45,689 nucleotides of DNA, taken from contig CALJZR010000001.1 of NCBI GenBank assembly GCA_937983635.1, positions 1-45,689 on the forward strand, in the 5' to 3' direction. Under the pieces are notes generated by a model. That model was not told the DNA's origin. It saw only the letters and a program-made list of their open reading frames with translations, and made no database searches. Every line of letters starts with the position of its first letter. Position 1 is the first letter of the stretch. This DNA comes from an uncultured bacterium (lineage in GTDB: Bacteria; Patescibacteriota; Patescibacteriia; Patescibacteriales; UBA12465). Positions 21,276 to 45,689 of this stretch are shown piece after piece. A program made the translations under genes and the position numbers.

Positions 21276-21279
21276 ATAA

Positions 21280-22437: not shown

Positions 22438-22438
22438 T

Positions 22439-23270: not shown

Positions 23271-23283
23271 ATTTTCCTTGTGG

Positions 23284-28238: not shown

Positions 28239-28288
28239 TTTGAGTAATCTTGTTTTGTCCAAAGTTTTTAAAATTGGCCAGATTACTT

Positions 28289-28933
28289 ATGTCTGATCAC
28301 CTTGAAGATCAACCAAAAAATGAGACTCATTCCTCATTTTTTAAAAGTTTGCCCAAACCGCAGCGAGCCGCTTTTTTATTTTTATCGGCCCTGAGTTTGG
28401 GCGTTCTTGTTTTATGGCTCTGGCAGTTCAACGCTCGCCTTTCTCGGCCTTTTCGCGTACCTGATACTGGCCAAAAAGAAGTGGCGGTTGACACTAGCGA
28501 TTTTGAAGCGGCTTTAATTAGTTTAGATTCTGATGGCGACGGTTTGACTGATATAGAAGAACGGAGCTTATACGCTTCTTCCCCTTATTTAGAAGATTCC
28601 GATAGTGACGGTATTGATGACCGCACTGAAGTAGAAAGCGGCAGCGATCCCAATTGTGCCGCTGGCCAAGATTGCGGTGCCGCTACCGCCCCGGCAATCA
28701 CTCCAATTATTGCCAGCTCCACCACCATTGATGTTGAACCTGAAGTTGGCGCCGATAGTGGCGATGAAACTGATCTACAGGCGATGATGGCGGGGCAAGC
28801 CAGCGCCGCCCAACTCCGCGCCATGCTTTTAGATAGCGGCGCTAACGCTGACATGATTAACCAGCTTAGCGATGAAGAATTACTCAAGACCTATCAAGAA
28901 ATGTTAGCCGAGCAGGGGACTGCGGCCCAATAA
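28289..28933 (+). CDS. Membrane-anchored protein with thrombospondin type-3-like calcium-binding repeats
   Basis: The ATG at 28289 (MSDHLED...) is preferred over the TTG at 28250. It has one TM (AAFLFLSALSLGVLVLWLW) and two acidic loops, DSDGDGLTDIEE and DSDSDGIDDRTE (28526-28630). It ends 22 nt before the giant gene. Confidence 0.7.
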   Translation: MSDHLEDQPKNETHSSFFKSLPKPQRAAFLFLSALSLGVLVLWLWQFNARLSRPFRVPDTGQKEVAVDTSDFEAALISLDSDGDGLTDIEERSLYASSPYLEDSDSDGIDDRTEVESGSDPNCAAGQDCGAATAPAITPIIASSTTIDVEPEVGADSGDETDLQAMMAGQASAAQLRAMLLDSGANADMINQLSDEELLKTYQEMLAEQGTAAQ

Positions 28934-28955
28934 AATATTTATTATTTTGTAGATA

Positions 28956-31900: not shown

Positions 31901-34900
31901 TTCCCGGGCTAATTATTTCTACTCTCCTTTTGCCGAAAAGATTATCCCGAAAAATAGCCGCTCCTGCAGTGCTGATGCGGTTGGTTGCAGTGAGTTTACT
32001 AATTTAGATGAAGTAGCGGCTGGTGGCGAAAAGAGAGAATACTATACTCAGTTGAAGCAATGTATTAAGCCCGGACCAAGCTGTGCCGATTTTTATACTT
32101 GGGAAGGGACGGAAGAAAGCGGTTATCAGCTTAAATCTTTGGTCTTAAAAAAAGATGATGCTGGCGACCCGGCCGTTACCGCTGATGATTCTCAGCTTTG
32201 TAGCGAAGCCATTTTCAACTTGCCGCCGAGCGACCCGGGCTTTAATCCTGATTGTAAACAATTTTATAATAAAGCGGGGGCGATTTCTTATCACTTAAGC
32301 GCCACCACTATCACCTGTTCGGATAATTGTCATAATTATCGCCTCTCCGAAAATAACGTTGATACTTCTATTACTCAAGCCCAGTGCAGTGGCATTGATC
32401 GTTTTTGGAGTGCTGCCTCTTCTGCTTGTTTCGTGTGTAAAAATGGTGGCGTTTGGAATGCTGAATATAATGCTTGTATTTATCAAGCAATTCCTAACGA
32501 AGGCATTAAATGTTCGGCCGCTCAAAACGGTTGCCGGGAGTATAACGGCAGTCTGGGCAATAACGTGAAGATGGTTGAAGCTTATAGTTTTGAGAATGGT
32601 ACCGATGGCTGGAAAGGCCAGTGTGGTGATGATGCCCGCAGTTCCGCTGTCGCTAATGTCAATAACGGTAAGTCGTTATTATATGATCGCGGCTCCAATT
32701 ACGGCAACGTTAATGTTCAAACAGAGTGTATCCAAAATAATAATGTAAGCTTTTTTGATAAATTTTTTGGCAGTGCTAACGCCGCTCCGGCTTCCTATAT
32801 CAAGCAAGTCGTTGGTCGTAACGTTTCTCAGGGCAATTCTTATAGCCTGAAGTTTACCGCCAGCGCTCCCTTGGATGCCAACGTCAGTTTTGCTTTCTTA
32901 AGCAGTCAGGATGAAATCGTCTATTTTAACGCCAGCGAAGGCGATATTACCGGTAAAATTACTATTTCTGGAAATAGCGAATGGCGAACGTATGAATTGA
33001 GCCTGCCTGAACTTAATCATAAAGTTGATGGTGATGAGTCTTTGATTATTATTTCTGATCGTGATTTCTTCTTGGATAACATTGTTTTAACGGAAATTCG
33101 CGATCGTTATTATTTAATAAAAAATACGAGCGAAGTGCCGGATGTTTGTTACTATGATATGCTGGATAATTATCAGGGAGCTGACTATAATCTCGGTTGC
33201 TCTTTGTATAATGACCGATCCGGCAATAATCATTATTTGCGCCAATTTAGCCGCCTTTGTCAGGAATCAGCTGTTGGTTGTGAGTTGATGGTGGATACCG
33301 CTAATTATGATGATTATAAGCCTGCGGTCTGGCACGATGATAATAATAATGGTGTTTGCGACTCCAACGAGACGGAATGCGTATCTGTGGCTGGGGACCG
33401 TTTCTTTTATGCAATTTATGACGAAAGCCGTCGTTGCAATAAAGCTGATTTAGGTTGCTCCCGTTTAGGAGAATCATCCTCATCTGGCTCCAACTTAGAT
33501 TGGAGCGATGTCTTTAAGCGCAATAACCCTAATAACTATAGTCAGTCATTATGCGCTGCTGCTGATGCCGGTTGCGAAGCTTGGCAATATACTGATGGCA
33601 GCGGACTTACTTATTTCAAAAATCCTGGCAATAACGCCTGTGTTTATCGGACTAGCACTAATCCCGATAAGCCGGGTAAGGCTTGGTATAAAGTGCCGGT
33701 TACTCGGTGTGATTTGAATAGTAATGGTAGCATTGATGGTACGGAAAAAAGCTTGGATATTTGTAAAACTGCCGATGATTGTGCTGGCGGTCGCCCTTGT
33801 TTAGTGGATAATAATGATTATGATTGTTCCGTTTCCTATTTTAAGACTGTCGGTTTTGGCGGCGGTGGCAATCAAGTTCCTGTGCCTTCCTTGGCAGCTG
33901 GTTTGTGTGAATCAGCTAGTTCTGGCTGTACGGAATATATTGATCCGGTAAGCACTTTCTCTTCCAACGTGGTTTATAATCCCCTTACGGAGATGAGCGC
34001 TAATGGTCAGTATTTAGGCTGGGAAATGGTTAATGGTTCCCGCCAACAAGATTTAACGCTTGAGCCGAACAAGCTTTATATTTTTTCGGTAGGCTATAAT
34101 GTTGCCAGCACCACTATTAATAATGATGTAATTATTAATTTTCCTTCCGGAGTATCACTTCTTCAAGAAGATAATAATTTCAGCACCGTAGCGAGTACAA
34201 GTTTGCGCATCCCCAGTACTCAGCCGAACAAACGCTTTATTTTCCATTCTCGTGGCAATATTGAAGCGACCGTTATTGGTGGCTGGCTTGGGCATGAAGT
34301 TATTTTAAGGGAGGCAATTATTGATTATCAGTTCCGTCAGAATGTTGATAAGACCACCTGTAATGGCATTGTAAATTTTGATAATGGTTGCGTTTTGTTT
34401 AATGAGCGCTCGGTTAATGGTGGAGCCGGACTACTTTCTTTGAGCGGCGGTTGGAACGCGGCTGCCAGCGTTGACGGACAGTCGCCTGCTAGTTGTTCTG
34501 CCGGTAATTGTAGCGCTAATAGGTTGGTAAAAGTTCGACCTAATCGCGTGTGCGCTTCTTGGCTGGACTGTTTAACTTATGCGGTGGATCCGGAAACTAA
34601 TCAGCGCACCTGTTATGCTTTAGGCGAGTGCAATAGTTTAAATGATAATAATGAATGCGCTAATTTTGTTAGATCATCTAATCAAATCTTAGCTTCTTCT
34701 AGTTTTGATATTACTAAGCGTGATGGTTATTCGGTCCTAAATAAATTGAATCTTTCGGGCATGAGAGAGGTTGGTCTTAATACTGAGGCTCATTATGACT
34801 TTGAAGATGCTAGCCCAAATATAACTTGCAAGTTGGTCTCTAATAGTACTTCCACTTGTGCTTTTGATAATGGGATTGTCGCTGATAGCATTATTGACAG

Positions 34901-37199
34901 TCCGACTAAGGCACCTACGGATTATCCAGCAGAAGGCAAAGCTTATTTGCGCGTAATGGGCGGTCAAATGATTTCACCTCACTCTTCTAATGCGCCTATT
35001 TCTATACAAAAAGGTCAAGATTATTATTTGAATTTTTTGGTTAATACTAAGGGCTCTGGGGTTGATGCCAAGGTTTGGTTATATAATGCCATTAATGGTA
35101 ATTTAATTACTTCTGCGACTTTTAGTTCTGTTAATGGTTGGGAGCGTCGAGTATTGAGGATTCCTGGCGCTAGTCTCAGCGCTGTTGATTCTATTAGAAT
35201 TTATTTTGGTGCTAATACGAACGCTAGGGATGAACGCTATGTTTATTTTGATGATATCAATATTGAGCCTGTGCTCCAGGTAGCTGGTGATAATGGCGTT
35301 AATAGTTATATTGCTAAAGAGTGTCGTCTCTATCCAACTCAAGATGCCACCTCTTGTACTAGTAAAAATAGCCAGGTTGTTAGTGATGGCTTAGTTGGTT
35401 ATTGCTTGCAGCATGACTTAGCCAATAAGAATGTCTGCTTGCTGTGGTATCCGATTGATCAAATTAGTGCGGCCTCGAAGTCAGCTCGTTCTAATCTTGG
35501 TTATCAAGGCGCCTATCCTCTTAATTATTGTACGGAAGCTAATGGTAATTTTAATCTGGTTAAAAAGGTTGTATTAAAAGTAATATACAAAAGAGGGGAT
35601 CATAGTAATGACGGCAACGGTGGTTATATAAATAGTAATAGCGATGGTTATACTGAAATTAATGCGGCTATTTGTGGAGACGCAATTAATTATCGAGCAA
35701 TAGTCACAAATAGAAAAGAAAACTGGAATTATGAAACTATATATTGCGTCCCTAGAGCTGGCACTAATGTTGTGATTTCCGGACCATCAACCAATATTGA
35801 ATTTTATGGCAACGTTTTGTCTTGGACTTGGGTAAAATATAATAGAATAGTTTCTGTGCCTGTTATCAATTGTACTTGTGGTTCAGACAATGATGCTTGT
35901 CCAGATGATTGCAGTCCTATTGATGAGATAAAAAATGCCGAGCCGCCCATTAGAGTTTTTGACTATGATCACCCCACGGTTGATGAATATCAATTAAAAC
36001 TTATTTCCTCTATTGATGAAGAAGAGGTTTATTATCCAACCTGTAACCGTTTTACTCAGGTTGTAGATGCGGCGGGAAATAATAAAGCTTGGGCCGGAAG
36101 AACTAGTAAGTCTAGCATTTATCCTTATGAGACTCCTGCTTTTTTCCGTGACGCCTCTAATTATTACGGACCAGCTTGTTACATTCCAGGGGAATGTATT
36201 GAAACTTGTGAATGTGGCACTCATTGCGATTGTGACTATGGGGCAGAATATTGTTCCGCTCCTTGTGGTATACCTGGTGATTGTTATGAATATGCTCCTG
36301 ATCAAGTTGTCCCTTGTGGTACCCCCGGTTCTTTACAGGATTCTAGCGCCTTTAATTTTACAAAATATGGGCGTCTACGTGATTTAGTTCCTTTTGGCGC
36401 CGCTACTTTCCCCGATGATTTTAATATTTTTGCGGCCGATGAGCCTATCATGTTCCGTAGTCAGAATTCCAGCAAATTAGACCAAAAGGTTTTTGCTGGT
36501 CGTCCTTATAGCTGTCAAGGCCTTGGCTGTGCTAATATTGGCTATTGTAGCTTAAACCCCCAGGTAATCTGTTTATTGGACAATACTGTTAGCTCTAGTA
36601 CCTCCTTAGTTAATCAGAGGTCTTGCGGTAGCGCTAATGGCACCTGCCTACCTTTATGGAACGCCTCTAAATTCACCTATACCTTCTATCCGGAGAATAT
36701 TTTAAAGAATGTTTTCTTAAAATCTTTTGCTGGATATAAATACAGTTCTAGTACTAACGCTTATATTATTGATGCCGCTCCCGGCTATAGCCAGCCTGCT
36801 GCTGTCGGTGGCTCTTACAATCCGGGCTTGTGTACGTCTGACAGTGCTCATTATTCCTCCAACGATTCCAGTTATTCGACTTATTGGTGCGGTGTAAAGC
36901 CGAAAATTAGCAATGTGAGATTAAACGGAATCCTCTCTACCAGCACGGGCATGTTTGATGTTTCTAAGCCAGGAATTTATACCCTCACATTCAATACGGC
37001 CGTTGACGTTGAACAACAACCTTTGCGGGAGTTAATTGTTGATTGGGGTGATAACTCTATGCAGAGCCTGGTAAATCAAGACCATCGTCCCGATGTTAAT
37101 AATCCTTATAAACTTTATCATTATTACCAGGGCGGTGCTGGTGTGTTGAAGATTGGCATCAAAGTTACCGATAATTGGGGATTTTATGCGAATTATTAG
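28956..37199 (+). CDS. Giant (2747 aa) secreted/anchored cysteine-rich surface protein (putative adhesin)
   Basis: This is an uninterrupted 8.2-kb ORF. It has an N-terminal signal/anchor (LGAVAILAVIIGSLFLISPQSAQA), many Cys, nine C-x5-G-C motifs, three jelly-roll/CBM-like modules and a C-terminal PKD-like module. Confidence 0.9.
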   Translation: MSVKIMNKRFNFLANRQKLGAVAILAVIIGSLFLISPQSAQAQMVTADTQTVSQTFMQKVWDFLKKAYEKGGASAFQKTVRTALNKIAYDTATALGSGGEGQQPLFVTKDWGEYLTQIGDEAAGSFIEDAVNNWNDADWDSTGKGSAKNEECTASYETCARGTFNTVTREWEGGCDIIQNSQEAAECEKKCQSALLQCGGVVTGADGVTAPKSSRTIAVCQPSSISAKLTIAMGLVDYNRPAAPNCTASALVENWDSYVDRMTAFKEDDFLDKFAGIFNPVSNDLGIYMALRTDMTQKMATSVDTSKLKLNADKGWLDIRDIAGNPKGMPGDAATQAEMSKQGYVNNMASFSGDALIDAANVFLNQLALTAFNRYMSKLGEKTPDSVSINNPTSDPKIGYSEVAVRESAAQIIEPDFTVRADYDILSSLSMCRDRNNPGPAECVIDDKLMQGIVEKKTVAEAAKEGYLHKEWLFTADFREGSYSLRNLQIMRKYRIVPLGWEVAASANKTATLVDLMSCFSNSDSYNEYTSNFDIRNQAWCRGLVDPNWVLKAPLNYCAKQGYSAQILNTSVIPSVDGNGNAADTIQITRAEDYCADDKTCIKEKADGSCEAYGYCQSERRTWNFDSKSCQPINNTCSSLINVSSNQKVAYLENTLDYANCNADTVGCKRYSLIGSYATSTGQVSWSPNPTVNAYFNNKLGSCSSADEGCKEVMRVKPGWGSNLIMGADFANDKVGDSLANSLINNYWPVWSTGNRAASIIDASTLGSGSVGKAILLESTGNVASTTIGLYSDNAVSLIPDNLNILSGETYTLSADVYLIEGDKVHVVLGNDYLAAAETIDKNAWRHVSVTRSLKEKPLSEMSFSVVGYSTGSQVRFAVRNLKLEMTSWDSGFSIYGAYKVYEKIIPPYLAEACYINTNPSSPDYRLRPDAPAVCNNFARQCNRDEAGCESYKENSTGFTVAAQAVSSDYCDASCDGYDLYVSRANYFYSPFAEKIIPKNSRSCSADAVGCSEFTNLDEVAAGGEKREYYTQLKQCIKPGPSCADFYTWEGTEESGYQLKSLVLKKDDAGDPAVTADDSQLCSEAIFNLPPSDPGFNPDCKQFYNKAGAISYHLSATTITCSDNCHNYRLSENNVDTSITQAQCSGIDRFWSAASSACFVCKNGGVWNAEYNACIYQAIPNEGIKCSAAQNGCREYNGSLGNNVKMVEAYSFENGTDGWKGQCGDDARSSAVANVNNGKSLLYDRGSNYGNVNVQTECIQNNNVSFFDKFFGSANAAPASYIKQVVGRNVSQGNSYSLKFTASAPLDANVSFAFLSSQDEIVYFNASEGDITGKITISGNSEWRTYELSLPELNHKVDGDESLIIISDRDFFLDNIVLTEIRDRYYLIKNTSEVPDVCYYDMLDNYQGADYNLGCSLYNDRSGNNHYLRQFSRLCQESAVGCELMVDTANYDDYKPAVWHDDNNNGVCDSNETECVSVAGDRFFYAIYDESRRCNKADLGCSRLGESSSSGSNLDWSDVFKRNNPNNYSQSLCAAADAGCEAWQYTDGSGLTYFKNPGNNACVYRTSTNPDKPGKAWYKVPVTRCDLNSNGSIDGTEKSLDICKTADDCAGGRPCLVDNNDYDCSVSYFKTVGFGGGGNQVPVPSLAAGLCESASSGCTEYIDPVSTFSSNVVYNPLTEMSANGQYLGWEMVNGSRQQDLTLEPNKLYIFSVGYNVASTTINNDVIINFPSGVSLLQEDNNFSTVASTSLRIPSTQPNKRFIFHSRGNIEATVIGGWLGHEVILREAIIDYQFRQNVDKTTCNGIVNFDNGCVLFNERSVNGGAGLLSLSGGWNAAASVDGQSPASCSAGNCSANRLVKVRPNRVCASWLDCLTYAVDPETNQRTCYALGECNSLNDNNECANFVRSSNQILASSSFDITKRDGYSVLNKLNLSGMREVGLNTEAHYDFEDASPNITCKLVSNSTSTCAFDNGIVADSIIDSPTKAPTDYPAEGKAYLRVMGGQMISPHSSNAPISIQKGQDYYLNFLVNTKGSGVDAKVWLYNAINGNLITSATFSSVNGWERRVLRIPGASLSAVDSIRIYFGANTNARDERYVYFDDINIEPVLQVAGDNGVNSYIAKECRLYPTQDATSCTSKNSQVVSDGLVGYCLQHDLANKNVCLLWYPIDQISAASKSARSNLGYQGAYPLNYCTEANGNFNLVKKVVLKVIYKRGDHSNDGNGGYINSNSDGYTEINAAICGDAINYRAIVTNRKENWNYETIYCVPRAGTNVVISGPSTNIEFYGNVLSWTWVKYNRIVSVPVINCTCGSDNDACPDDCSPIDEIKNAEPPIRVFDYDHPTVDEYQLKLISSIDEEEVYYPTCNRFTQVVDAAGNNKAWAGRTSKSSIYPYETPAFFRDASNYYGPACYIPGECIETCECGTHCDCDYGAEYCSAPCGIPGDCYEYAPDQVVPCGTPGSLQDSSAFNFTKYGRLRDLVPFGAATFPDDFNIFAADEPIMFRSQNSSKLDQKVFAGRPYSCQGLGCANIGYCSLNPQVICLLDNTVSSSTSLVNQRSCGSANGTCLPLWNASKFTYTFYPENILKNVFLKSFAGYKYSSSTNAYIIDAAPGYSQPAAVGGSYNPGLCTSDSAHYSSNDSSYSTYWCGVKPKISNVRLNGILSTSTGMFDVSKPGIYTLTFNTAVDVEQQPLRELIVDWGDNSMQSLVNQDHRPDVNNPYKLYHYYQGGAGVLKIGIKVTDNWGFYANY
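31131..31610 (+). other. Jelly-roll / carbohydrate-binding-module-like segment 1 of the giant protein
   Basis: The pattern ...GKAILLESTGN...YTLSADVYLIEGDKVHVVLGN...WRHVSVT...VRFAVRNLKLE resembles CBM_4_9/laminin-G-like modules. This is pattern recognition only. Confidence 0.4.
32583..33098 (+). other. Jelly-roll / CBM-like segment 2
   Basis: YSFENGTDGWKG...GKSLLYDRG...SYSLKFTASAP...EWRTYELSL...FFLDNIVLTEI is the classic F-E-x-G-x-x-GW start and F-x-D-[DN]-I-x-L end of CBM-type sandwiches. Confidence 0.5.
34791..35273 (+). other. Jelly-roll / CBM-like segment 3
   Basis: HYDFEDASP...GKAYLRVMGG...GQDYYLNFLVNTKG...NGWERRVLRIPG...IRIYFGAN...YVYFDDINIEPV. Confidence 0.5.
36897..37196 (+). other. 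PKD-like Ig-fold module at the C-terminus of the giant protein
   Basis: ...PGIYTLTFNTAVD...LIVDWGDNS...YKLYHYY...LKIGIKVTDNWGF matches the PKD pattern (WDFGDG-like, HxY, VTD-x-G). Confidence 0.5.
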
Positions 37200-37226
37200 T
37201 ATTTATTTTTTCTCAGACTTTAACTA

Positions 37227-37255
37227 TTGACAATTCTTGGTTATTGTATTAAAAT
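37227..37255 (+). promoter_or_regulatory. Sigma70-like promoter candidate for the lipoprotein gene (TTGACA-17 bp-TAAAAT)
   Basis: TTGACA at 37227-37232, a 17-bp spacer, and TAAAAT at 37250-37255, about 50 nt upstream of the ATG at 37305. Confidence 0.45.
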
Positions 37256-37304
37256 AATTTAACTAGTTGTTTTAAAATTAATATCCACCTAAATACAGTG
37301 CGCC

Positions 37305-37724
37305 ATGAAAAATTTAATGTTTTTGTTGTTGGCAACAATGTTTATCTTTGTTGCTTGTAAAAAGGATCCAGACCCCGATCCAATTCCCGACCCACCGCCA
37401 GTGTCATATGATAATGTGACAGTAAAGGTAAAATTTACCGCTGCCCCCCAGGGGATGGTGGTTACGGTGACCAATTTTGGTTTATCTGACCAAGACAAGG
37501 TTGCTCTTACCTCCAATCTTTACCCGGTAGTACCAAGTCCGGTTGCTGATTTTACCTGGCAGGTTCCCGAGGACATTGCTTTTCAGCAGTGGAATAAAAC
37601 CGTCTACATATATGTAGGCGCTTGCCGCAGCGACGGCTACGCATGCTACGGCCAGGAAGAATGGCTTAAAATTGACAAGTTGGGCAAAACCAACGAAGTC
37701 ACATTTGTCGTTAAACCTTTCTAG
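37305..37724 (+). CDS. Small putative lipoprotein with Pro/Asp-rich linker
   Basis: Signal peptide MKNLMFLLLATMFIFVAC with a lipobox-like FVAC, then the KKDPDPDPIPDPPP linker and a beta-rich domain of about 100 aa. Its codon usage is visibly C-ending (GAC, GGC, TAC, TGC), unlike its neighbours. Confidence 0.7.
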   Translation: MKNLMFLLLATMFIFVACKKDPDPDPIPDPPPVSYDNVTVKVKFTAAPQGMVVTVTNFGLSDQDKVALTSNLYPVVPSPVADFTWQVPEDIAFQQWNKTVYIYVGACRSDGYACYGQEEWLKIDKLGKTNEVTFVVKPF

Positions 37725-37750
37725 GCCTGAGTTTGTACCGTTTAATTTTT

Positions 37751-37785: not shown

Positions 37786-37787
37786 TA

Positions 37788-37819: not shown

Positions 37820-37835
37820 ATATTTTGTTTATTGT

Positions 37836-39696: not shown

Positions 39697-40284
39697 ATGT
39701 CCGTTGATGACCGGCTCTTATCTGCCCAAACTGAAAAAAATCCTAACAATCAAGCTGAATCCAGCTCCGATCGAGCGGGCGCTTTGCGGGAATCTCAACG
39801 AGCCGAAGAAAATAATGAAAATGAACCGGAACAAGAAGATTTGCGCAGCCAGGTGATGAGCAAGAGAAAGGAGATGGCCCTAAAGATGAAGGGGAAACTT
39901 AGTAAAGCAGAATTGGCTTTTAGTGCTGGCACCAGCAAGCTTCTTCAAGGGGCTTGGCGCAATATCGTCATGTCATTTGGTTTTTCTTTTCTCTATGTTT
40001 ACGTCCATTTATTTTTAAAAGGAATCTTTGGTAAAAGATTTTTTGCCGATTTGGGCTCAGAGTGGCGCGATCGTCCCGGTTTGACTATTGAAGAGAGGGA
40101 AAGAATGGGGGTTAGTTTGAAGATAATTGAATCTTTTGGTGTTGGCGCAATCAGTATTCTTATTTTTATCATTTTAATTTTTTCTTTTTCTATTCCCGCT
40201 TTAATTATTGAGGTTATGTCCAATCCTCTTCGTGCCGGCATTGCTTTGCTCCAGACTTTTTGGAGCTGGATTTCCGGTACTTAG
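39697..40284 (+). CDS. Hypothetical membrane protein (acidic disordered N-terminus plus hydrophobic helices)
   Basis: 195 aa. The first ~70 aa are Glu/Asn/Ser-rich. TM-like segments follow (IVMSFGFSFLYVYVHLFL and GVGAISILIFIILIFSFSIPALII). It ends 9 nt before the next gene. Confidence 0.65.
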   Translation: MSVDDRLLSAQTEKNPNNQAESSSDRAGALRESQRAEENNENEPEQEDLRSQVMSKRKEMALKMKGKLSKAELAFSAGTSKLLQGAWRNIVMSFGFSFLYVYVHLFLKGIFGKRFFADLGSEWRDRPGLTIEERERMGVSLKIIESFGVGAISILIFIILIFSFSIPALIIEVMSNPLRAGIALLQTFWSWISGT

Positions 40285-40293
40285 AATATTTAT

Positions 40294-42969
40294 ATGCATT
40301 TTAAAATGCCCAATTTTTTGAAAAATAGAAAACTATGGTTGGCAACACTCCTGATTTTTGCCGCCAGTTTTTTAGCCGCCCCTAACGTTTTTGCTAGTGC
40401 GGGCGACTGGGCGGGGGAAGTAGTTGGTAGCATTATCTATGTCTTTATCTGGGCCCTCGGACTAGTTTTAATTCTAGTGATGAAGGCCCTTATTTTAATT
40501 GCCTCTTATCAGAATTTTATTAGCTCTGGTGCAGTGCAGGAAGGCTGGACGGTGGTGCGCGATTTGTCCAACATGTTTTTCGTAGTGATTCTTTTAGTGA
40601 TTGCTTTTTCCACCATTTTGCATTTGGAAAATTATAGTTATAAGAAGTGGTTGCCGAAATTAATTTTAATGGCGGTGCTGATTAATTTTTCCAAAACAAT
40701 CTGCGGTCTGTTGATTGATGTCGCTCAGATTATCATGCTTACTTTCGTTAATGCTTTTAAAGATGTCGCTGGCGGTAACTTGATTGAGATGTTAGGAATT
40801 AGGGAAATTGTCACTTTAGCAGAAGGGAGCGATTCGGTGGGTTTTTGGCAAATTGTTGGCGCTTATGTCCTCGGTTTGATTTACATGATTATTGCTCTCG
40901 TGGTTATTACCACCATGATGATGATGCTGGTGATGCGCCTAGTCATGATTTGGATTTATGTGGTTTTATCGCCCCTAGCTTATCTACTAGCCGCTTTTCC
41001 GGGGGGCGCTCAGTATGCTTCGCAGTGGTGGAGTGAGTTTATTAAGAATTTGATAGTCGGTCCTGTTATTGCTTTTTTTATCTGGTTGTCTTTTGCTGCT
41101 TTGCAAACCGGTAATTATAACGATGTTGGTAGTGTTGGCACCGCCAACATTAGTGCGGAACAAGAAGCTTTTTCCGGTTCAATAGCTAAAGTTGACGGCG
41201 CCTCCACTCCGAGCATGGGGACGCAGGCCTCCACTCCTGGGGTTTTGATTAAATTTGTGATTGGCATCGGCATGCTTATCGGCGGCCTTAAAGTTGCTCA
41301 ACAGATTGGCGGCGCCGCTGGTTCGGTGGCGGGCAAGGGCATGGGCAAATTGGCGGCCATGGGTGCGGCTACTGCCGCCTTCGGCAAGAAGTGGGGCGGA
41401 AAGGTTGCCACTGGTGATAATTATCTAGCTCGCAAAACCATGAAGGCTGCGAAATTTGATTTTCGTCCCATGGCATTATCTAATGCCATTAAAACAAGTT
41501 TTGAAAATGCTAAGAAAAAAGACGAATTTGATATTAGAGATCAAGGTGAAAGAAACTTAACAAAGGGTGGAGTCGTGAGTGTGTTGGGAGGAATAGGGGC
41601 AGGACAAGGGTATGGAGATGCTTATTTGAGTTGGCGTGGAGCAGCGAGAGCTGTTGGAGAGGTGACAGGATTTAACAGCACGCGTCGACAACGTTATCAG
41701 GATGATTTAAGTTTAGCGGAAGAAAATTTAAAACAGAAAGAAAAAGAATTTTCTCCGCTTATGTCTCATGACATGGAAGCTAATATTCAAGTAAAAATAA
41801 ATCAAGGAATTGCTGATGTTGCTGCTTATAATCAAAAAATGAGTGACAACCAGAATGCTATTAGCGCTATTGATATTATAATAAATAAGCTTCAGGGAAA
41901 GGTCGATAATAATAAGGCTTCATCTGATGAAATAAAAAAATTAAGAGAATATAAAGCGGATCGTAAAAACTTAGAAAATGATAATTCGACGCTGTTAGAT
42001 AAGAAGAATGTTGTTCAAGATGATATTAACAAAAATCAGAATATACTTAATGACGCTAGGGCTAATAATCGCATCGTTTCTAATAGTGACTATCAAAGCA
42101 AAAAAGATGATATAACAAAAGCTAAATCAGAGGTTAGTAATGCTAAGATTTTGTTGGCAAGAGCTTTACCTCCTCGTGACTTGGAGGGTCGAGCTAATTA
42201 TCGCTCTGAAATTTCTCAAGCAAAAAAGAAATTTGATGAAATTTCTGAGCCGTCCGAAAAACTTACTCTATTTGAAGACGCTGTTAAGAGAAAAGATCGT
42301 ACAGATATGGTTGCTTTAATGGAGAGCTTGATGAGTGATGTAAATTTTAATGAATTATTGCTTTCTCGAGGTTACAATCAAGACGGCCGTGGCATGATTC
42401 AATTTTTGCATAATGAAGAAAATGAGTATGGAAAAAGAAATGGCCTAGATATTAAAGGTTTGGACGAGCAATCGCTTTTAAAGATTCAGAACGATCTGTC
42501 AGTCATAGCAGAGAGCACTGGCCAATGGACTTTTGCTAAGACTGTAGGCGTGGACGCCGGTGGTTCCAGATATAGCACAGTTAAGCGAGATTCTAATGGT
42601 AATTGGGATGACTCCGAACAAGTAATATCTGCTTTGACCGATTTATTAAAGAACGATCCTCAAAAATTAATGACTAGTTTACCTAGATTTGCTTTTGGTG
42701 GGAATGATGTTAATGGTAATTTTAAGTTAGCTAATTTAGGAAAGGCTTTGGCCTTGGCTCTTGATAGGTCTCAAGCTTTCCAGAAGCAAGGAAATCGTAT
42801 GCGTCCGAATTTAGCAATGAATCTGTCTTTTGTTATAGATGATTTAGAGGCAGCAGGCGTTTCTCCGGAGGGTTTAAATGTTATTAAGACTTACGGCGGT
42901 AATGCTAGCGGCGGTATTGGGGCAGATTCTTTGGTGGAAGAACTAATTTCAAAAAATAAATTTAACTAA
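40294..42969 (+). CDS. Large polytopic membrane protein, tentatively VirB6/TrbL-like N-terminal domain plus Gly/Ala-rich segment, coiled-coil and C-terminal globular region
   Basis: 891 aa with signal peptide LATLLIFAASFLAAPNVFASA. About 6-7 TM helices span aa 40-270, including VLSPLAYLLAAFPGGAQYASQWWSEFIKNLIVGPVIAFFIWLSF, which is reminiscent of TrbL/VirB6. A G/A-rich stretch is IGGAAGSVAGKGMGKLAAMGAATAAFG. A Lys/Asn/Asp-rich heptad-like region spans aa ~470-640. Confidence 0.8.
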   Translation: MHFKMPNFLKNRKLWLATLLIFAASFLAAPNVFASAGDWAGEVVGSIIYVFIWALGLVLILVMKALILIASYQNFISSGAVQEGWTVVRDLSNMFFVVILLVIAFSTILHLENYSYKKWLPKLILMAVLINFSKTICGLLIDVAQIIMLTFVNAFKDVAGGNLIEMLGIREIVTLAEGSDSVGFWQIVGAYVLGLIYMIIALVVITTMMMMLVMRLVMIWIYVVLSPLAYLLAAFPGGAQYASQWWSEFIKNLIVGPVIAFFIWLSFAALQTGNYNDVGSVGTANISAEQEAFSGSIAKVDGASTPSMGTQASTPGVLIKFVIGIGMLIGGLKVAQQIGGAAGSVAGKGMGKLAAMGAATAAFGKKWGGKVATGDNYLARKTMKAAKFDFRPMALSNAIKTSFENAKKKDEFDIRDQGERNLTKGGVVSVLGGIGAGQGYGDAYLSWRGAARAVGEVTGFNSTRRQRYQDDLSLAEENLKQKEKEFSPLMSHDMEANIQVKINQGIADVAAYNQKMSDNQNAISAIDIIINKLQGKVDNNKASSDEIKKLREYKADRKNLENDNSTLLDKKNVVQDDINKNQNILNDARANNRIVSNSDYQSKKDDITKAKSEVSNAKILLARALPPRDLEGRANYRSEISQAKKKFDEISEPSEKLTLFEDAVKRKDRTDMVALMESLMSDVNFNELLLSRGYNQDGRGMIQFLHNEENEYGKRNGLDIKGLDEQSLLKIQNDLSVIAESTGQWTFAKTVGVDAGGSRYSTVKRDSNGNWDDSEQVISALTDLLKNDPQKLMTSLPRFAFGGNDVNGNFKLANLGKALALALDRSQAFQKQGNRMRPNLAMNLSFVIDDLEAAGVSPEGLNVIKTYGGNASGGIGADSLVEELISKNKFN

Positions 42970-42975
42970 TTTTTT

Positions 42976-43938
42976 ATGTTAATTCTTGAAGGCTTAATCG
43001 ATGAGAATTTTCAAAATAAATTATCTCATTTTATTGATGATGCCTTAATTTATAATGACATTCAGAGTGCTAGGAGATTATTAATTGCTATTAAAAAAAT
43101 ATTAAAGAGCAATAATGACCCTAAAATAAAAAATAAGTTGATTGATTATTATAAAGCTAATATAGATAAACTAAAATTCATTTGTTTTTTTGATTTAGAT
43201 GAAAATGATATTTCTGATTTAATGAAAAACAGCATACAGATGGTTTTAGGTGTTGATGGATTTAACTTGGTCGATAAATTAAATGATCGTCTTAAATTTG
43301 TTGAAATTTTAGAAAATAGAGATCTTTTAAAGCAACAAATAAGCAATTGTTTATTATTGAATAAAAATAAAGTAACTACTAAAAAAATTAGAATTGGATC
43401 TATTCTCCACGAACCAACCGTGTCAAATTGGTTAAAAGATTACTTGTCTAATATTAATCTTAGTGTAGATCCCGGACTTAGAATTAATAATTATTTGAAT
43501 AATAGTCAAAATATCCAGTTAATTGATTCTAATGAAAAGAAAAAGATTAAAGATTTGATAGTATTTTTTGAACATACTAAAAAATCTTCTTTAGTTGCAG
43601 GTAATTTAGAGGAAAGTTTTATTTTTACAGATCAGGACGGCCGAAAAATTGTTATTGATCATGGTCTTCCTATTAAGTCTGATGTAAATATTGAGAAAAT
43701 TATAAAAGACATTTATTCAAAAGAAAATTTGTTGGATATTGGCAAAGATAGTTTTATAAATTCAAAAAAACGAGATTTTTATAGATTTAACAAAAAAATA
43801 GAAGATTTAGATTCTTTTCCGCCAAATCCTTTATTAATCCTGTCTAATTCATTAAATAATTACTCTCCCTCGTCTTTAGAATATAAAGCCATTAAGCAGG
43901 AAATAGAAAGACTGCGTAAAAATCAAAAAAATGTCTAG
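42976..43938 (+). CDS. Hypothetical soluble protein (very AT-rich gene)
   Basis: 320-aa Asn/Lys/Ile-rich ORF with no TM and no motif I recognise. GC is strikingly lower than its neighbours. Its end overlaps the kinase start by 8 nt. Confidence 0.6.
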   Translation: MLILEGLIDENFQNKLSHFIDDALIYNDIQSARRLLIAIKKILKSNNDPKIKNKLIDYYKANIDKLKFICFFDLDENDISDLMKNSIQMVLGVDGFNLVDKLNDRLKFVEILENRDLLKQQISNCLLLNKNKVTTKKIRIGSILHEPTVSNWLKDYLSNINLSVDPGLRINNYLNNSQNIQLIDSNEKKKIKDLIVFFEHTKKSSLVAGNLEESFIFTDQDGRKIVIDHGLPIKSDVNIEKIIKDIYSKENLLDIGKDSFINSKKRDFYRFNKKIEDLDSFPPNPLLILSNSLNNYSPSSLEYKAIKQEIERLRKNQKNV

Positions 43939-44890
43939 CTACAAAAGAAGACCCTTGATTGCCGTTGCCGGTTCTTTAGCTTTTGACCGCGTGATGAATT
44001 TCCCCGGCCGTTTCTCCACCCACATTCTTCCTGGAAAAATTCATGACTTAAGTCTCAGCTTCTTGTTGGATCAGTTAATTATCGGTTTCGGCGGCACTGC
44101 TGGCAATATCGCTTATAATCTGGCGCTCCTCAAGGAGCGCCCTTCTGTCTTAACGGCCGTTGGGGCGGATTTTGCTCCTTATCGCCGTCATTTGCGTTCT
44201 CAAGGAGTTGATTTGCGTGCTTTAGTCAGCGATAAGAAAAAAAATTGTGCCTCAGCTTTTATTATTACCGATGCTGATGATAATCAGATCGCCGGTTTCT
44301 ATCCTGGCCCCTCCGCTTTACCCTCTTTTTCTCGTTTACTCAATAGCGCTTGCGATTATGTTATTATTTCTCCCGACGACAAGGCGCGGATGCTGGCTGT
44401 TCAAGTTTGGGCGCGTAAAAGAAAATTATCTTATATCTTTGACCCCGGACAACAAGTAACAAATTTTACCGGCTTGGAGCTAGCCGCTTTTATCAAAGAT
44501 GCTTTCTTAGTGATTGGTAATGATTATGAGATTGAAATTATCCGGCGGTCTTTAAAGGCAAAAACAGTGGCTAGTATTTGTCCTACTAAAGCTTTAATTA
44601 TTACTAAAGGAGCGCAGGGTTCAGAAATAGTGATTGGTAATAAGAGAGTCTTGATTCCGGCAGTGCTAGCTCGTGAAAGTTTAGACCCTACTGGGGCGGG
44701 CGATGCCTATCGGGCTGGCCTCTTAAAGGGTTTGTCTCTAGGCTTTAGCCTGGAAGACTGCGCTCGCCTGGCGGCCACGGTTGCTGTTTACGCGGTTGAG
44801 AAAAAGGGTACTCAAAATCATTATTTTACTATTAAAAATTTAGAAAAACGCTATCGCCAGAGCTTTGGACAAGTCATTAAATTAACTTGA
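43931..44890 (+). CDS. PfkB-family carbohydrate/nucleoside kinase (adenosine-kinase-like)
   Basis: GGTAGNIAYNLALL (N-terminal Gly-Gly region) and DPTGAGDAYRAGLL (the PfkB signature 2 / catalytic GAGD). Confidence 0.88.
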   Translation: MSSYKRRPLIAVAGSLAFDRVMNFPGRFSTHILPGKIHDLSLSFLLDQLIIGFGGTAGNIAYNLALLKERPSVLTAVGADFAPYRRHLRSQGVDLRALVSDKKKNCASAFIITDADDNQIAGFYPGPSALPSFSRLLNSACDYVIISPDDKARMLAVQVWARKRKLSYIFDPGQQVTNFTGLELAAFIKDAFLVIGNDYEIEIIRRSLKAKTVASICPTKALIITKGAQGSEIVIGNKRVLIPAVLARESLDPTGAGDAYRAGLLKGLSLGFSLEDCARLAATVAVYAVEKKGTQNHYFTIKNLEKRYRQSFGQVIKLT

Positions 44891-44912
44891 CGGAGAACGG
44901 TATTGCCTCTAA

Positions 44913-45689
<777 letters not shown>

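What the first reader, a model, noticed from the sequence alone, without database searches (positions are those of the whole stretch)
39697..43938. Three-gene membrane cluster with a VirB6/TrbL-like 891-aa protein: orphan piece of a T4SS-like or novel surface apparatus?
Three co-directional genes sit here, separated by gaps of 9 and 6 nt:
- a 195-aa protein with an acidic disordered N-terminus and TM helices
- an 891-aa protein
- a 320-aa soluble Asn/Lys-rich protein

The 891-aa protein has a signal peptide and an N-terminal 6-7-TM domain whose VLSPLAYLLAAFPGG...W motif region recalls TrbL/VirB6 channel proteins. It also has a Gly/Ala-rich amphipathic stretch, a coiled coil of about 170 aa and a globular C-terminal region.

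Elsewhere the window encodes two VirB2-like pilin-core proteins and a wall peptidase (18.1-21.3 kb). I see no VirB4/VirD4-type ATPase, relaxase or integrase. Either the parts belong to a dispersed or degenerate conjugative apparatus, or they form an ATPase-independent or differently powered surface structure that has not been described.
Basis: inference. Interest (0 to 1): 0.65.

Follow-up and report, generated by a model that had tools for sequence, protein, structure and literature searches.

The report
VirB6 module of a split Patescibacteria T4SS
The three genes are the membrane-platform (VirB6-type) half of the chromosomal type IV secretion system already described in Patescibacteria; they are not an orphan or ATPase-free machine, because the same contig carries the matching VirB3/TrsD/VirB4 half 7.5 kb downstream, just past the window's end.

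Summary
In detail: three co-directional ORFs of 195, 891 and 320 aa, separated by 9 and 6 nt.

The VirB6 call is supported by four lines of evidence.
- An AlphaFold model of aa 1-410 has R388 TrwI/VirB6 as its top four PDB matches (probability 0.80-0.97, but E 0.13-0.30 and TM below 0.5).
- TrbL is the most recurrent weak Pfam hit among homologues.
- In 44 of 51 informative Falkowbacteria (class ABY1) loci, the trio sits directly upstream of a 500-aa gene, PrgI/VirB3, TrsD and a VirB4 ATPase.
- An ENA contig 100% identical to the window's last 11.8 kb carries that second half 7.5 kb downstream, after seven metabolic genes.

The "orphan / ATPase-independent apparatus" reading is therefore refuted. 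This is the Patescibacteria T4SS described in 2025. It is chromosomal and no relaxase was seen.

Four things are not in that description.
- This roughly 900-aa "extended VirB6" family is not listed for the one genome I could check in the published survey.
- The operon is split in one subclade.
- The 195-aa and 320-aa proteins are near-universal partners.
- A 2.4-kb AT-rich cassette, covering the VirB6 C-terminal extension and the 320-aa gene, is about 38% identical to the nearest relative while its flanks are about 92%.

Interest is modest.

The parts
39697..40284 (+). 195-aa small membrane protein: a conserved accessory subunit encoded directly upstream of the VirB6-like gene. It has a charged, disordered N-terminus, two hydrophobic segments and a conserved C-terminal tail.
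   Evidence: ORF; hydropathy. A homologue is found upstream in 66 of 74 testable GTDB loci. In the sister clade the same sequence is split into a 147-aa and a 78-aa gene: BLASTP aa 1-129 vs s147 gives E 4e-21, and aa 168-195 vs s78 gives E 2e-4. No Pfam, NCBIfam or PHROG family. It is 93% identical to the nearest relative.
40294..41422 (+). N-terminal VirB6-like polytopic domain of the 891-aa protein (aa 1 to about 376): a signal-peptide-like segment, 6-7 long hydrophobic helices and a Gly/Ala/Lys-rich amphipathic helix. It is the conserved core of the family.
   Evidence: About 50 invariant columns across 53-86 homologues. AlphaFold2 pLDDT 78. The top four Foldseek PDB hits are R388 TrwI/VirB6 (7o3v_G/F, 8rtd_L, 8rt9_F; also 7o3v_J at rank 9): probability 0.80-0.97, TM(target) 0.38-0.49, E 0.13-0.64. 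7o3v_F was verified as TrwI, which also occurs in 8rt9 and 8rtd. Pfam TrbL: window E 1.9 at profile positions 34-190; homologues down to E 0.004; it is the commonest weak hit, 6 of 53 members. A profile search finds 22,367 clusters at E<=1e-3. It is 92% identical to the nearest relative. A gene call on L093 starts 12 nt later, giving 887 aa.
41423..42969 (+). C-terminal extension of the 891-aa protein (about aa 377-891): Lys-rich linker, a bundle of about 165 aa of long antiparallel helices, and an alpha/beta globular domain. It is hypervariable between close relatives.
   Evidence: AlphaFold2 model of aa 401-891: pLDDT 93.5, pTM 0.80. No PDB match beyond generic coiled coils (best E 0.19). 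It is 37% identical to the nearest relative, against 92% for the N-terminal domain. Sister strains P0002-P0007 are 84-99% alike among themselves but 41-43% to the window. No nucleotide similarity to the nearest relative from 41423 onwards.
42976..43938 (+). 320-aa soluble protein: a near-universal downstream partner of the VirB6-like gene. Its family shares an N-terminal domain with the 500-aa protein that opens the second half of the operon. This copy is unusually AT-rich.
   Evidence: A homologue lies directly downstream in 69 of 69 testable loci. BLASTP to the sister-clade 354-aa and 331-aa proteins gives E 4e-12 and 5e-10. hhalign of the 320-like family vs the 500-like family gives probability 97.9% and E 3.7e-13 over 93 N-terminal columns. 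GC is 0.246 against 0.41 for the locus, the most extreme of 70 orthologues. It is 38% identical to the nearest relative. Its divergence tracks the VirB6 C-terminus, not the N-terminus (partial rank correlation 0.47 vs 0.21).
41423..43855 (+). Divergent 2.4-kb cassette (VirB6 C-terminal extension plus nearly the whole 320-aa gene) between conserved flanks.
   Evidence: blastn against the nearest relative (L001) aligns 35950-41422 at 82% and 43856-45688 at 87%, and finds nothing in between. GC falls to 0.23-0.34 in parts of it.
43931..45689 (+). Start of the 7.5-kb block of metabolic genes that separates the two halves of the T4SS operon in this lineage: PfkB-family kinase at 43931-44890 and AdoHcyase from 44925, cut by the window end.
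   Evidence: Pfam PfkB, E 1e-38. Sequence. The full block is visible on L093 and L094. The same block, 3.8-5.6 kb long, occurs in 7 GTDB loci, and in 18 more PfkB follows the 320-like gene. It is about 16 kb long in GCA_964616855.1.
28250..37724 (+). Conserved upstream neighbours, possibly part of the same surface system: a TSP3-repeat membrane protein (28250-28933), a 2747-aa Cys-rich secreted giant protein (28956-37199) and a 139-aa lipoprotein (37305-37724).
   Evidence: TSP3_bac, E 7.5e-6. The giant has one N-terminal hydrophobic segment, 3.8% Cys and no Pfam hit. A giant homologue lies upstream on the same strand in 47 of 59 loci with more than 4 kb of upstream sequence. The same order is seen in both clades. 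That these genes belong to the T4SS is inference only.
20268..21302 (-). 344-aa protein with a VirB2-like T4SS_pilin core (aa 69-136) and a Cys-rich C-terminal domain.
   Evidence: PF18895, 29.2 bits (cut-off 26.6), E 1e-6. NCBIfam Mbov_0395 pilin-like, E 0.003. Sequence and hydropathy.
18093..19397 (-). 434-aa protein with a weaker VirB2-like pilin core (aa 184-243) and a C-terminal VanY/M15-like peptidase motif (SNHGKGVALD). It is a candidate wall-hydrolase (VirB1-type) function.
   Evidence: PF18895, E 0.001, 19.5 bits, below the cut-off. VanY-B/G, E 0.08. Sequence. The motif reading is by eye.

Best explanation
The three genes are the first half of the chromosomal type IV secretion system of a Falkowbacteria-like (class ABY1) Patescibacterium.

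The 891-aa protein is the system's VirB6-type subunit. By analogy with R388 TrwI/VirB6, its conserved N-terminal bundle of long hydrophobic helices would oligomerise in the cytoplasmic membrane. There it would form the base on which VirB2-like pilin subunits, or the translocation channel, are assembled.

The energy comes from a VirB4 ATPase. Here that ATPase is split into a TrsD-like N-terminal protein and a CD1110-type core. It would be anchored by a PrgI/VirB3-like protein, with a bitopic NTF2-like (VirB8-like?) protein alongside.

Those genes lie in the same orientation on the same contig, 7.5 kb downstream. They were separated from the VirB6 half by an insertion of SAM-cycle and PEP-utilising metabolic genes. 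In most related species the two halves form one uninterrupted operon.

The protein is an "extended VirB6". Its large C-terminal coiled-coil plus alpha/beta domain is probably cytoplasmic by the positive-inside rule. That domain and the soluble 320-aa protein evolve together and fast, so they probably bind each other. The 195-aa membrane protein is a third, conserved lineage-specific subunit.

The system is not a conjugation machine. It most likely builds a pilus or secretion conduit used in contact with host cells, as in Saccharibacteria.

What is shown: the gene content, the synteny, the split, the presence of VirB4, and the pattern of conservation. What is inferred: the oligomeric platform role, the topology, the C-terminus/320-aa interaction and the biological role.
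For: Identity of the 891-aa protein:
- The top four Foldseek PDB matches of the N-terminal model are TrwI/VirB6 chains (probability 0.80-0.97). All other proteins in the top ten score 0.23 or less.
- TrwI is described as seven long helices, five of them hydrophobic (PMC9259494). This matches the model's 6-7 long helices.
- TrbL is the commonest weak Pfam hit (6 of 53 members, best E 0.004), in the same register as the window's own hit.

Context in relatives:
- In L005, L006 and L007 the gene order is giant, small genes, VirB6-like, 331/354 aa, 468/497 aa, PrgI, TraC-like, VirB4, 207 aa, RadA.
- Of 80 GTDB loci, 44 have that order uninterrupted. Seven are split by 3.8-5.6 kb, and 18 have PfkB after the 320-like gene.
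- A 320-like gene lies directly downstream in 69 of 69 testable loci and a 195-like gene upstream in 66 of 74.

The window's own contig: L093 is 100% identical over 11,759 bp. It carries the 500-aa gene, PrgI, TraC-like/TrsD and VirB4 at window-equivalent positions 51464, 52968, 53408 and 54101.

Other components:
- VirB4 matches NCBIfam conju_CD1110 at 361 bits (cut-off 325), covering profile positions 178-733.
- The adjacent 226-aa protein matches TrsD and the N-terminal part of VirB4 models.
- PrgI scores 37.9 bits, cut-off 27.
- The 204-aa protein has a weak NTF2-like hit, E 2e-4.
- A VirB2-like pilin domain is present in the window.

Known system: Patescibacteria T4SS with VirB4, TrsD, VirB3, VirB6 and VirB2 and no relaxase, with radA and recG as neighbours in ABY1 (PMC12102498). 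It is essential for epibiotic growth in Saccharibacteria (PMC12857230).

Co-evolution of the C-terminus and the 320-aa protein.

Topology: 16 K+R in aa 336-420, directly after the last hydrophobic helix.
Against: - No sequence search reaches significance for VirB6. The Pfam TrbL hits are below the gathering score (8.7 bits for the window, at most about 16 bits for homologues).
- An HMM profile of the family against PDB sequences finds only coiled-coil noise.
- hhalign against the single TrwI sequence gives nothing.
- The Foldseek E-values are 0.13-0.64 and the TM-scores are below 0.5.
- All-helical membrane bundles can match by chance.
- Whether the two halves are co-expressed after the split is untested. 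Promoter- and terminator-like sites are no more frequent than in shuffled sequence.
- The location of the C-terminal extension is uncertain. Some relatives carry an extra Gly/Ala-rich hydrophobic stretch inside it (by eye).
- No functional data exist for any ABY1 organism.
Confidence: 0.85

Rival explanations
1. The T4SS-like machine of this lineage is mainly a DNA-uptake or DNA-exchange device (like the H. pylori ComB or archaeal Ced systems), not a pilus or effector system. The VirB6-like protein would then be its membrane DNA channel.
For: The VirB4 half is always followed by RadA, with RecG a few genes on. The published survey notes comF, recG and radA next to T4SS genes specifically in ABY1 (PMC12102498). 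VirB4 gives weak hits to the CedB and CedD DNA-import ATPases (E 5e-12 and 2e-4, far below their cut-offs). No relaxase was seen.
Against: In the only tested Patescibacterium, competence depends on type IV pili and ComEC. The T4SS is essential even though a comEC deletion is viable (Wang 2023 as summarised in PMC12857230). Adjacency to radA and recG may be mere synteny. VirB2-like pilins point to a pilus.
Confidence: 0.15
2. The 891-aa protein is an unrelated polytopic membrane protein (a transporter, or an anchor of the neighbouring giant surface protein) that merely travels with T4SS genes. The true VirB6 function is missing or is supplied by another protein.
For: No significant sequence match to any VirB6/TrbL model. 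Foldseek E is 0.13 and TM is below 0.5. The gene keeps its position next to the giant protein even when separated from VirB4.
Against: VirB6 is the top structural match and TrbL the commonest weak profile hit. The gene is immediately upstream of the VirB3/VirB4 genes in 44 of 51 informative loci. No other polytopic candidate is present in the operon.
Confidence: 0.08
3. The cluster is a decaying remnant of an integrated conjugative element.
For: The T4SS genes are dispersed in the window: the pilin-like genes lie 20 kb from the VirB6-like gene, and the operon is interrupted. The 320-aa gene is strongly AT-rich.
Against: All ORFs are intact. Synteny with housekeeping genes is conserved across at least 570 species. 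VirB4 is 78-100% identical across them. No integrase, relaxase or repeats were noted. The published phylogeny places Patescibacteria VirB4 in one vertically coherent clade (PMC12102498).
Confidence: 0.03
4. The cluster is an ATPase-independent or differently powered, undescribed surface apparatus.
For: No ATPase is encoded inside the 45.7-kb window.
Against: The identical contig carries TrsD and VirB4 7.5 kb downstream. In most relatives the ATPase is in the same operon.
Confidence: 0.01

Closest known systems
Patescibacteria (CPR) chromosomal T4SS, VirB4 clade related to MPF_FATA (Quinonero-Coronel et al. 2025, PMC12102498; Wang et al. 2023 for Southlakia epibionticum)
   Same: The component set is the same: a CD1110-type VirB4, a separate TrsD, PrgI/VirB3, a VirB6-type protein, VirB2-like PF18895 pilins, and no relaxase nearby. 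The location is chromosomal, and radA and recG are neighbours as reported for class ABY1.
   Different: The VirB6 of this lineage is not listed in the published component table for the one shared genome I could check. That genome is GCA_000999715.1, which carries homologue P0041; its table rows show only T4CP, Tfc7, VirB4, TrsD and VirB2. Other differences are the operon split by 3.8-16 kb of metabolic genes in one subclade, two conserved unannotated partners (195 aa and 320 aa), and a hypervariable C-terminus/partner cassette.
TrwI/VirB6 of plasmid R388 (PDB 7O3V, 8RT9, 8RTD)
   Same: It is the best structural match to the N-terminal domain. Both are bundles of about seven long, mostly hydrophobic helices, encoded with VirB3 and VirB4.
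   Different: There is no detectable sequence similarity. TrwI is 342 aa and works with VirB5, VirB8 and an outer-membrane core complex in a diderm. The 891-aa protein has a 500-aa C-terminal extension, no VirB5 partner is evident, and the host is a monoderm.
Extended VirB6 proteins (F/SXT TraG, Rickettsiales VirB6 paralogues)
   Same: Both combine five or more hydrophobic helices with a large C-proximal hydrophilic domain of unknown role (review PMC12857230). From my own knowledge, not tested here: in SXT/R391 a short polymorphic region of TraG pairs with the exclusion protein Eex to set specificity. That is a precedent for a variable VirB6 extension with a co-varying partner.
   Different: The extensions show no sequence or structural similarity that I could detect. 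The 320-aa partner has no membrane segment, unlike Eex and TraS. Conjugation is not involved here.
Gram-positive MPF_FATA conjugation systems (pCF10 PrgH/PrgI/PrgJ, pGO1 TrsC/TrsD/TrsE, CTn2 CD1110)
   Same: PrgI, TrsD and the CD1110-type VirB4 match their profiles. The architecture is that of a monoderm, without VirB7, VirB9 or VirB10.
   Different: Those systems sit on mobile elements with a relaxase and a coupling protein, and they lack VirB2 pilins. This one is a conserved chromosomal locus with pilin-like genes.

Membership tests
VirB6/TrbL family (T4SS inner-membrane platform) | Significant match to a VirB6/TrbL sequence profile (Pfam PF04610, gathering score 25.9 bits) | tested here: inconclusive
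   The window's aa 126-281 match profile positions 34-190 at 8.7 bits, E 1.9. Homologue P0030 gives E 0.011 in the same register. TrbL is the commonest weak hit among 53 members (6 of 53, best E 0.004), but none reaches the cut-off. The PDB profile search and hhalign against TrwI were both negative. Five homologues carry a precomputed PF19590 hit. I could not reproduce it or name the family with the tools.
VirB6/TrbL family (T4SS inner-membrane platform) | Fold: a bundle of about seven long, mostly hydrophobic helices like the solved VirB6 (TrwI) | tested here: met
   The AF2 model (pLDDT 78) has long helices at 38-71, 79-108, 116-166, 184-232, 238-271, 315-339 and 341-372. The top four of 350,542 PDB chains are TrwI (probability 0.80-0.97, about 300 aligned columns). 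The next proteins score 0.23 or less. Caveat: E is 0.13-0.30 and TM(target) 0.38-0.43 for the top four (0.49 for 7o3v_J at rank 9), so this is supportive, not proof.
VirB6/TrbL family (T4SS inner-membrane platform) | Encoded with VirB3 and VirB4 as the only polytopic protein of the locus | tested here: met
   The operon is contiguous in 44 of 51 informative GTDB loci. In the window's own contig VirB3, TrsD and VirB4 lie 7.5 kb downstream. No other polytopic gene is present in the operon.
Extended VirB6 | Five or more hydrophobic helices plus a large central or C-proximal hydrophilic domain | tested here: met
   aa 1-335 are hydrophobic helices. aa 377-891 form a hydrophilic coiled coil plus an alpha/beta domain. 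The definition is taken from PMC12857230.
Patescibacteria T4SS (PMC12102498) | VirB4 of the Patescibacteria / MPF_FATA-related type in the same genome | tested here: met
   The first 263 aa of VirB4 on L093 are 97.7% identical to P0229. The family matches NCBIfam conju_CD1110 at 361 bits, cut-off 325. Sources name the proteins 'VirB4-like conjugal transfer ATPase, CD1110 family'.
Patescibacteria T4SS (PMC12102498) | TrsD and a VirB3/PrgI homologue next to virB4 | tested here: met
   L093 has PrgI (144 aa) and TraC-like (227 aa) directly upstream of VirB4. PrgI scores 37.9 bits, cut-off 27. The 226-aa protein hits TrsD at E 1.8e-9 and VirB4 N-terminal regions.
Patescibacteria T4SS (PMC12102498) | VirB2-like pilin genes (PF18895) in the genome | tested here: met
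   20268-21302 scores 29.2 bits, cut-off 26.6. 18093-19397 is sub-threshold.
Patescibacteria T4SS (PMC12102498) | Chromosomal, with no relaxase in the cluster | tested here: met
   The window and all flanks carry housekeeping genes (rpoB/C, LepA, RecJ, LeuRS, GluRS, RadA, RecG). No relaxase or integrase family was listed. Only the window plus about 10 kb of flanks was examined, not the whole genome.
Conjugative element (ICE or plasmid T4SS) | Relaxase, coupling protein (VirD4) and integration or replication functions linked to the T4SS | tested here: not met
   None is present in the window or in the fetched loci. The published survey lists T4CP-like hits elsewhere in a related genome, not near virB4.
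VirB8-like scaffold (for the 204-207-aa protein after VirB4, outside the window) | Bitopic protein with an NTF2-like extracytoplasmic domain | tested here: inconclusive
   It has an N-terminal hydrophobic segment. There is a weak NTF2_YvbJ hit (E 2e-4, 22.6 bits, cut-off 25) for L010 only. The PDB profile search was negative.

The most novel reading that the evidence does not exclude
The C-terminal extension of the VirB6-like protein and the 320-aa protein may form a co-evolving, hypervariable "specificity module" bolted onto an otherwise highly conserved T4SS. It would be replaced or diversified as a cassette between conserved flanks.

Its role could be to select substrates, to discriminate partners or self, or to match a particular host. 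The precedent is the polymorphic TraG-Eex pairs of SXT/R391 elements.

A further untested extension concerns the giant Cys-rich surface protein, the TSP3 protein and the lipoprotein that stay linked to the VirB6 half. They could be the missing adhesin set of the Patescibacteria T4SS.
Probability: 0.25. Interest if true: 0.6.

Novelty: new member of a known kind. Interest (0 to 1): 0.35.

Why it matters
The Patescibacteria T4SS is the first T4SS shown to be essential for the growth of the bacterium that carries it, and its function is unknown.

The published survey found VirB6 in only a minority of genomes and attributed the gaps to extreme divergence. Recognising this very large family as the VirB6 subunit of ABY1/Falkowbacteria closes part of that gap. 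The family comprises 22,367 clusters at E<=1e-3.

The finding also shows that neighbourhood-based detection (within 20 genes of virB4) can be defeated by operon splitting. It adds two conserved partner proteins to the parts list.

The sharply bounded, fast-evolving C-terminus/partner cassette is a concrete place to look for what gives the machine its specificity. For genome scanning, the case is a reminder that "no ATPase in the window" may be only an edge effect.

Tried and rejected
- Direct family searches of the three proteins (Pfam, NCBIfam, PHROGs, PDB sequences) gave nothing usable.
- The family profile (A1) against PDB sequences returned only low-complexity coiled-coil hits.
- hhalign of A1 against the single TrwI sequence gave probability 0.8%, so nothing. 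A proper VirB6 alignment was not available.
- The representative-library search with the N-terminal profile shows a huge family but lists only the best 150, all close. The hoped-for bridge to canonical TrbL proteins could not be seen.
- Foldseek of the C-terminal model against the PDB returned only generic coiled coils such as EmrA, SMC, PcsB and EnvC.
- A homology search with the C-terminal half alone returned no hit at all, not even itself, presumably because Lys/Asn-rich words swamped the candidate list. It is uninformative.
- An exact-match scan of JGI metagenome contigs with a 38-mer from the window's end found no match. The extension was found instead through the PfkB protein look-up.
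- Promoter and terminator scans gave counts no higher than in shuffled sequence, and there is no clear terminator after the 320-aa gene.
- The profile of the 204-207-aa protein against the PDB gave nothing.
- A literature search for PF19590 gave nothing.
- R388 under accession BR000038 was not held. NC_028464 worked.
It was repeated on 53 members.
- Rejected reading, paralogue of a second VirB6: no second copy was found in the operon or among the top hits on the same contigs.

Full report
**1. The observation**

All are on the + strand, with 9-nt and 6-nt spacers.

The described features of the 891-aa protein are present:
- an N-terminal signal-like segment and a series of hydrophobic helices up to aa 335;
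- the VLSPLAYLLAAFPGG...W block, which lies among about 50 invariant columns of the family;
- an Ala/Gly/Lys-rich stretch at aa 330-400;
- about 165 aa of long antiparallel helices and a C-terminal alpha/beta domain, modelled with pLDDT 93.5.

The 195-aa protein has a charged, disordered N-terminus and two hydrophobic segments. The 320-aa protein has none and is Lys/Asn/Ile-rich.

Two proteins with the VirB2-like T4SS_pilin domain lie at 18.1-21.3 kb. One of them has a weak VanY-like C-terminus.

The rest of the window is ordinary Patescibacteria chromosome: rpoB, rpoC, MurJ, LepA, RecJ, pyruvate:ferredoxin oxidoreductase subunits, LeuRS, KsgA and GluRS. It encodes no VirB4, VirD4 or relaxase.

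**2. What the 891-aa protein is**

Direct searches find no family. The protein has more than 1,000 close homologues, all from Patescibacteria. A profile of its N-terminal domain finds 22,367 clusters at E<=1e-3 in the 1.8-billion-protein representative library.

Three independent lines point to VirB6.

- **Structure.** The AlphaFold2 model of aa 1-410 (pLDDT 78) consists of 6-7 long helices.
  - Its top four matches among 350,542 PDB chains are TrwI/VirB6 of plasmid R388 (7o3v_G, 8rtd_L, 7o3v_F, 8rt9_F), with probability 0.80-0.97 and about 300 aligned columns. 7o3v_J follows at rank 9.
  - All other proteins in the top ten have probability 0.23 or less.
  - I confirmed that 7o3v_F is TrwI by searching with the R388 gene.
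  - TrwI is described as seven long helices, five of them hydrophobic (PMC9259494).
  - The E-values (0.13-0.64) and TM-scores (0.38-0.49) are weak, so this alone would not be enough.
- **Profile hits.** Pfam TrbL is the most frequent sub-threshold hit when 53 family members are scanned one by one (6 members, best E 0.004). It falls in the same register as the window's own E 1.9 hit.
- **Gene context.** This is decisive and is described next.

**3. Gene context**

In a sister clade whose N-terminal domain is 60-70% identical, the gene order is:
- TSP3 protein, 2,750-aa giant protein, small proteins;
- 147 aa, 78 aa, VirB6-like (about 900 aa), 331/354 aa;
- 468/497 aa, PrgI, TraC-like, VirB4 (632 aa), 207 aa, RadA.

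The VirB4 matches NCBIfam conju_CD1110 above its cut-off (361 vs 325 bits), but only over profile positions 178-733. The missing N-terminal part is supplied by the adjacent 226-aa protein, which hits TrsD and the N-terminal region of VirB4 models. PrgI (VirB3-like) passes its Pfam cut-off. The 204-aa protein after VirB4 has a weak NTF2-like hit, which would fit a VirB8-like role.

The window's 195-aa protein is a fusion, or the unsplit form, of the 147-aa and 78-aa genes. The 320-aa protein is the homologue of the 331/354-aa protein.

**4. The "missing" ATPase**

VirB4 is so conserved (86-94% identity among the listed hits) that the top 120 hits included proteins from the window's own clade. 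I recognised them by matching contig lengths.

In GCA_964616855.1, the VirB6-like gene is at 89.7 kb and VirB4 at 112.1 kb of the same contig. VirB4 is preceded by a 500-aa gene, PrgI and TraC-like, and followed by a 204-aa gene, RadA and RecG. About 16 kb of metabolic genes lie in between.

Looking up the window's own PfkB protein then returned ENA contig ERZ724079 NODE_960 (L093). L093 is 100% identical to window 33931-45689 over 11,759 bp and runs 9.2 kb further. After the 320-aa gene come PfkB, AdoHcyase, MetK, a CTP-transferase-like gene, His_Phos, one PEP-utilizer gene and PPDK_N. They are followed by:

| Gene | Window-equivalent start |
|---|---|
| 500-aa gene | 51464 |
| PrgI | 52968 |
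| TraC-like/TrsD | 53408 |
| VirB4 | 54101 |

The window simply ends 5.8 kb too early.

Across 80 GTDB species loci (at least 570 species carry a relative, mostly named Ca. Falkowbacteria), the counts are:
- 320-like gene directly downstream: 69 of 69 testable loci;
- 195-like gene upstream: 66 of 74;
- uninterrupted operon: 44;
- split by 3.8-5.6 kb: 7;
- PfkB after the 320-like gene, with the second half beyond the fetched flank: 18.

The ancestral state is therefore one operon. One subclade, including the window, acquired an insertion of SAM-cycle and PEP-utilising genes between the 320-aa and 500-aa genes. The stop of the 320-aa gene overlaps the PfkB start by 8 nt, and no convincing terminator follows. 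The string may still be read through, but that is untested.

**5. Comparison with what is known**

This is the Patescibacteria T4SS described by Quinonero-Coronel et al. 2025 (PMC12102498). That description comprises:
- a VirB4 clade related to the monoderm MPF_FATA class;
- TrsD, PrgI/VirB3, VirB6, a few VirB8 and VirB2-like pilins;
- almost no relaxases, and a chromosomal location;
- in class ABY1, neighbours such as comF, recG and radA.

Falkowbacteria are ABY1 in that paper's genome table.

In Saccharibacteria the T4SS and its pilin array are essential for epibiotic growth, independently of ComEC-mediated competence (Wang et al. 2023, as summarised in PMC12857230). The same review defines "extended VirB6" proteins, which have five or more hydrophobic helices plus a large hydrophilic domain of unknown role. 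The 891-aa protein fits that definition.

The published survey detected only 480 VirB6 homologues for 2,474 virB4 genes. For the one genome I could check that carries a member of this family, its component table lists T4CP x2, Tfc7, VirB4, TrsD and VirB2, but no VirB6 or VirB3. That genome is GCA_000999715.1, Falkowbacteria GWF2_43_32, and the family member is homologue P0041 at locus L019. The held copy of the table is truncated, so I could not check others. The family is therefore a divergent, apparently overlooked member of a known component class in a known system.

**6. Mechanism (inferred)**

By analogy with TrwI, the conserved N-terminal domain would oligomerise in the membrane as the base of the channel or pilus and recruit VirB2-like subunits. 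It would be powered by the split VirB4 and anchored by PrgI.

The segment after the last hydrophobic helix carries 16 Lys+Arg in 85 residues. That suggests a cytoplasmic C-terminal extension, as for the C-terminus of A. tumefaciens VirB6 (my knowledge, not tested). There it could meet the soluble 320-aa and 500-aa proteins. Those two proteins share a 93-residue N-terminal domain (hhalign probability 97.9%, E 3.7e-13).

The biological role is unknown. Host contact or secretion is the leading idea. DNA uptake is a live rival because of the invariable RadA/RecG neighbourhood.

**7. An unexpected feature**

Identity between the window and its nearest relative:

| Protein or region | Identity |
|---|---|
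| GluRS | 90% |
| 195-aa protein | 93% |
| VirB6 N-terminal domain | 92% |
| PfkB | 92% |
| Giant protein | 86% |
| VirB6 C-terminal half | 37% |
| 320-aa protein | 38% |

At DNA level, similarity of 82-87% stops at 41422 and resumes at 43856.

Six sister strains have C-termini 84-99% alike among themselves but only 41-43% identical to the window's, while their N-termini are 92-98% identical to it. The window's C-terminus is marginally closer to those of more distant lineages: P0014 at 42% and P0008 at 41%.

The 320-aa gene has 24.6% GC in a 41% GC locus, the most extreme of 70 orthologues.

Other species pairs show the same decoupling. Over 1,653 pairs, divergence of the 320-like protein tracks the VirB6 C-terminus and not the N-terminus: Spearman 0.49, partial correlation 0.47, against 0.21 for the N-terminus. 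The pairs are not independent, so this is indicative only.

The high-confidence fold prediction argues that the region is functional, not decaying. I read it as a co-evolving, fast-diversifying module. Whether it diversifies by cassette exchange or by accelerated substitution is open.

**8. Verdict**

- Novelty: a new member of a known kind.
- Interest is modest (0.35). It comes from the apparently overlooked VirB6 family, the split operon, and the variable C-terminus/partner cassette.

Noticed in passing
window 41423-43855: This 2.4-kb stretch covers the VirB6-like C-terminal half and the 320-aa gene. It has no nucleotide similarity to the nearest relative, although the flanks are 82-87% identical. 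The proteins are 37-38% identical against about 92% for their neighbours. The 320-aa gene has only 24.6% GC.
   Followed up: partly
window 28250-37724: A TSP3-repeat membrane protein, a 2747-aa Cys-rich (3.8%) secreted protein with no Pfam domain, and a 139-aa lipoprotein stay upstream of the VirB6 module in both clades (giant homologue in 47 of 59 loci). They could be a T4SS-linked surface or adhesin set. The published survey found no PrgB-like adhesin in Patescibacteria.
   Followed up: partly
window 18093-23306 (- strand): The two VirB2-like pilin-domain genes are interleaved with the pyruvate:ferredoxin oxidoreductase subunit genes (TPP_enzyme_C at 19394-20260, POR_N at 21280-22521, POR at 22704-23306). 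This is an odd place for pilin genes. The 434-aa protein ends in a VanY/M15-like SNHGKGVALD motif, so it may be a pilin-peptidase fusion.
   Followed up: no
L006 15603-18186; L093 19478-20960 (outside the window): VirB4 is split. The 632-aa ATPase covers only positions 178-733 of the CD1110 model, and the adjacent 226-aa TraC-like/TrsD protein matches the N-terminal part. VirB4 is far more conserved (median 86% identity across species) than the VirB6-like protein (N-terminus 59% and C-terminus 27% mean pairwise identity).
   Followed up: partly
L001 18433-22625 and L010 1-7189, compared with L093 14847-17360: The number of tandem PEP-utilizers-domain genes in the metabolic insert varies widely between close relatives. 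There are at least six in GCA_964616855.1 and one in the window's strain. This changes the gap between the T4SS halves from about 16 kb to 7.5 kb.
   Followed up: no
window 39697-40284 vs L006 9308-9992: The 195-aa gene corresponds to two separate genes (147 aa and 78 aa) in the sister clade. The break falls in the loop between the two hydrophobic segments. Most of the ORFs recovered for this family across the GTDB loci are about 190-230 aa, i.e. unsplit.
   Followed up: partly
window 40294 vs 40306: The start codon is ambiguous. The longest ORF gives 891 aa (MHFKMPNF...), whereas the gene call on the identical ENA contig starts 12 nt later and gives 887 aa (MPNF...).
   Followed up: no
window 8044-9567: This 507-aa ORF between rpoC and a GT2 glycosyltransferase has no Pfam or NCBIfam match.
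   Followed up: no
loci L012, L023-L025 and others (record titles): Many of the Patescibacteria MAG records that carry this locus are titled 'uncultured Gammaproteobacteria bacterium' (TPA_asm), and one is titled 'Planctomycetota'. Judging by gene content, these taxonomic labels are evidently wrong.
   Followed up: no
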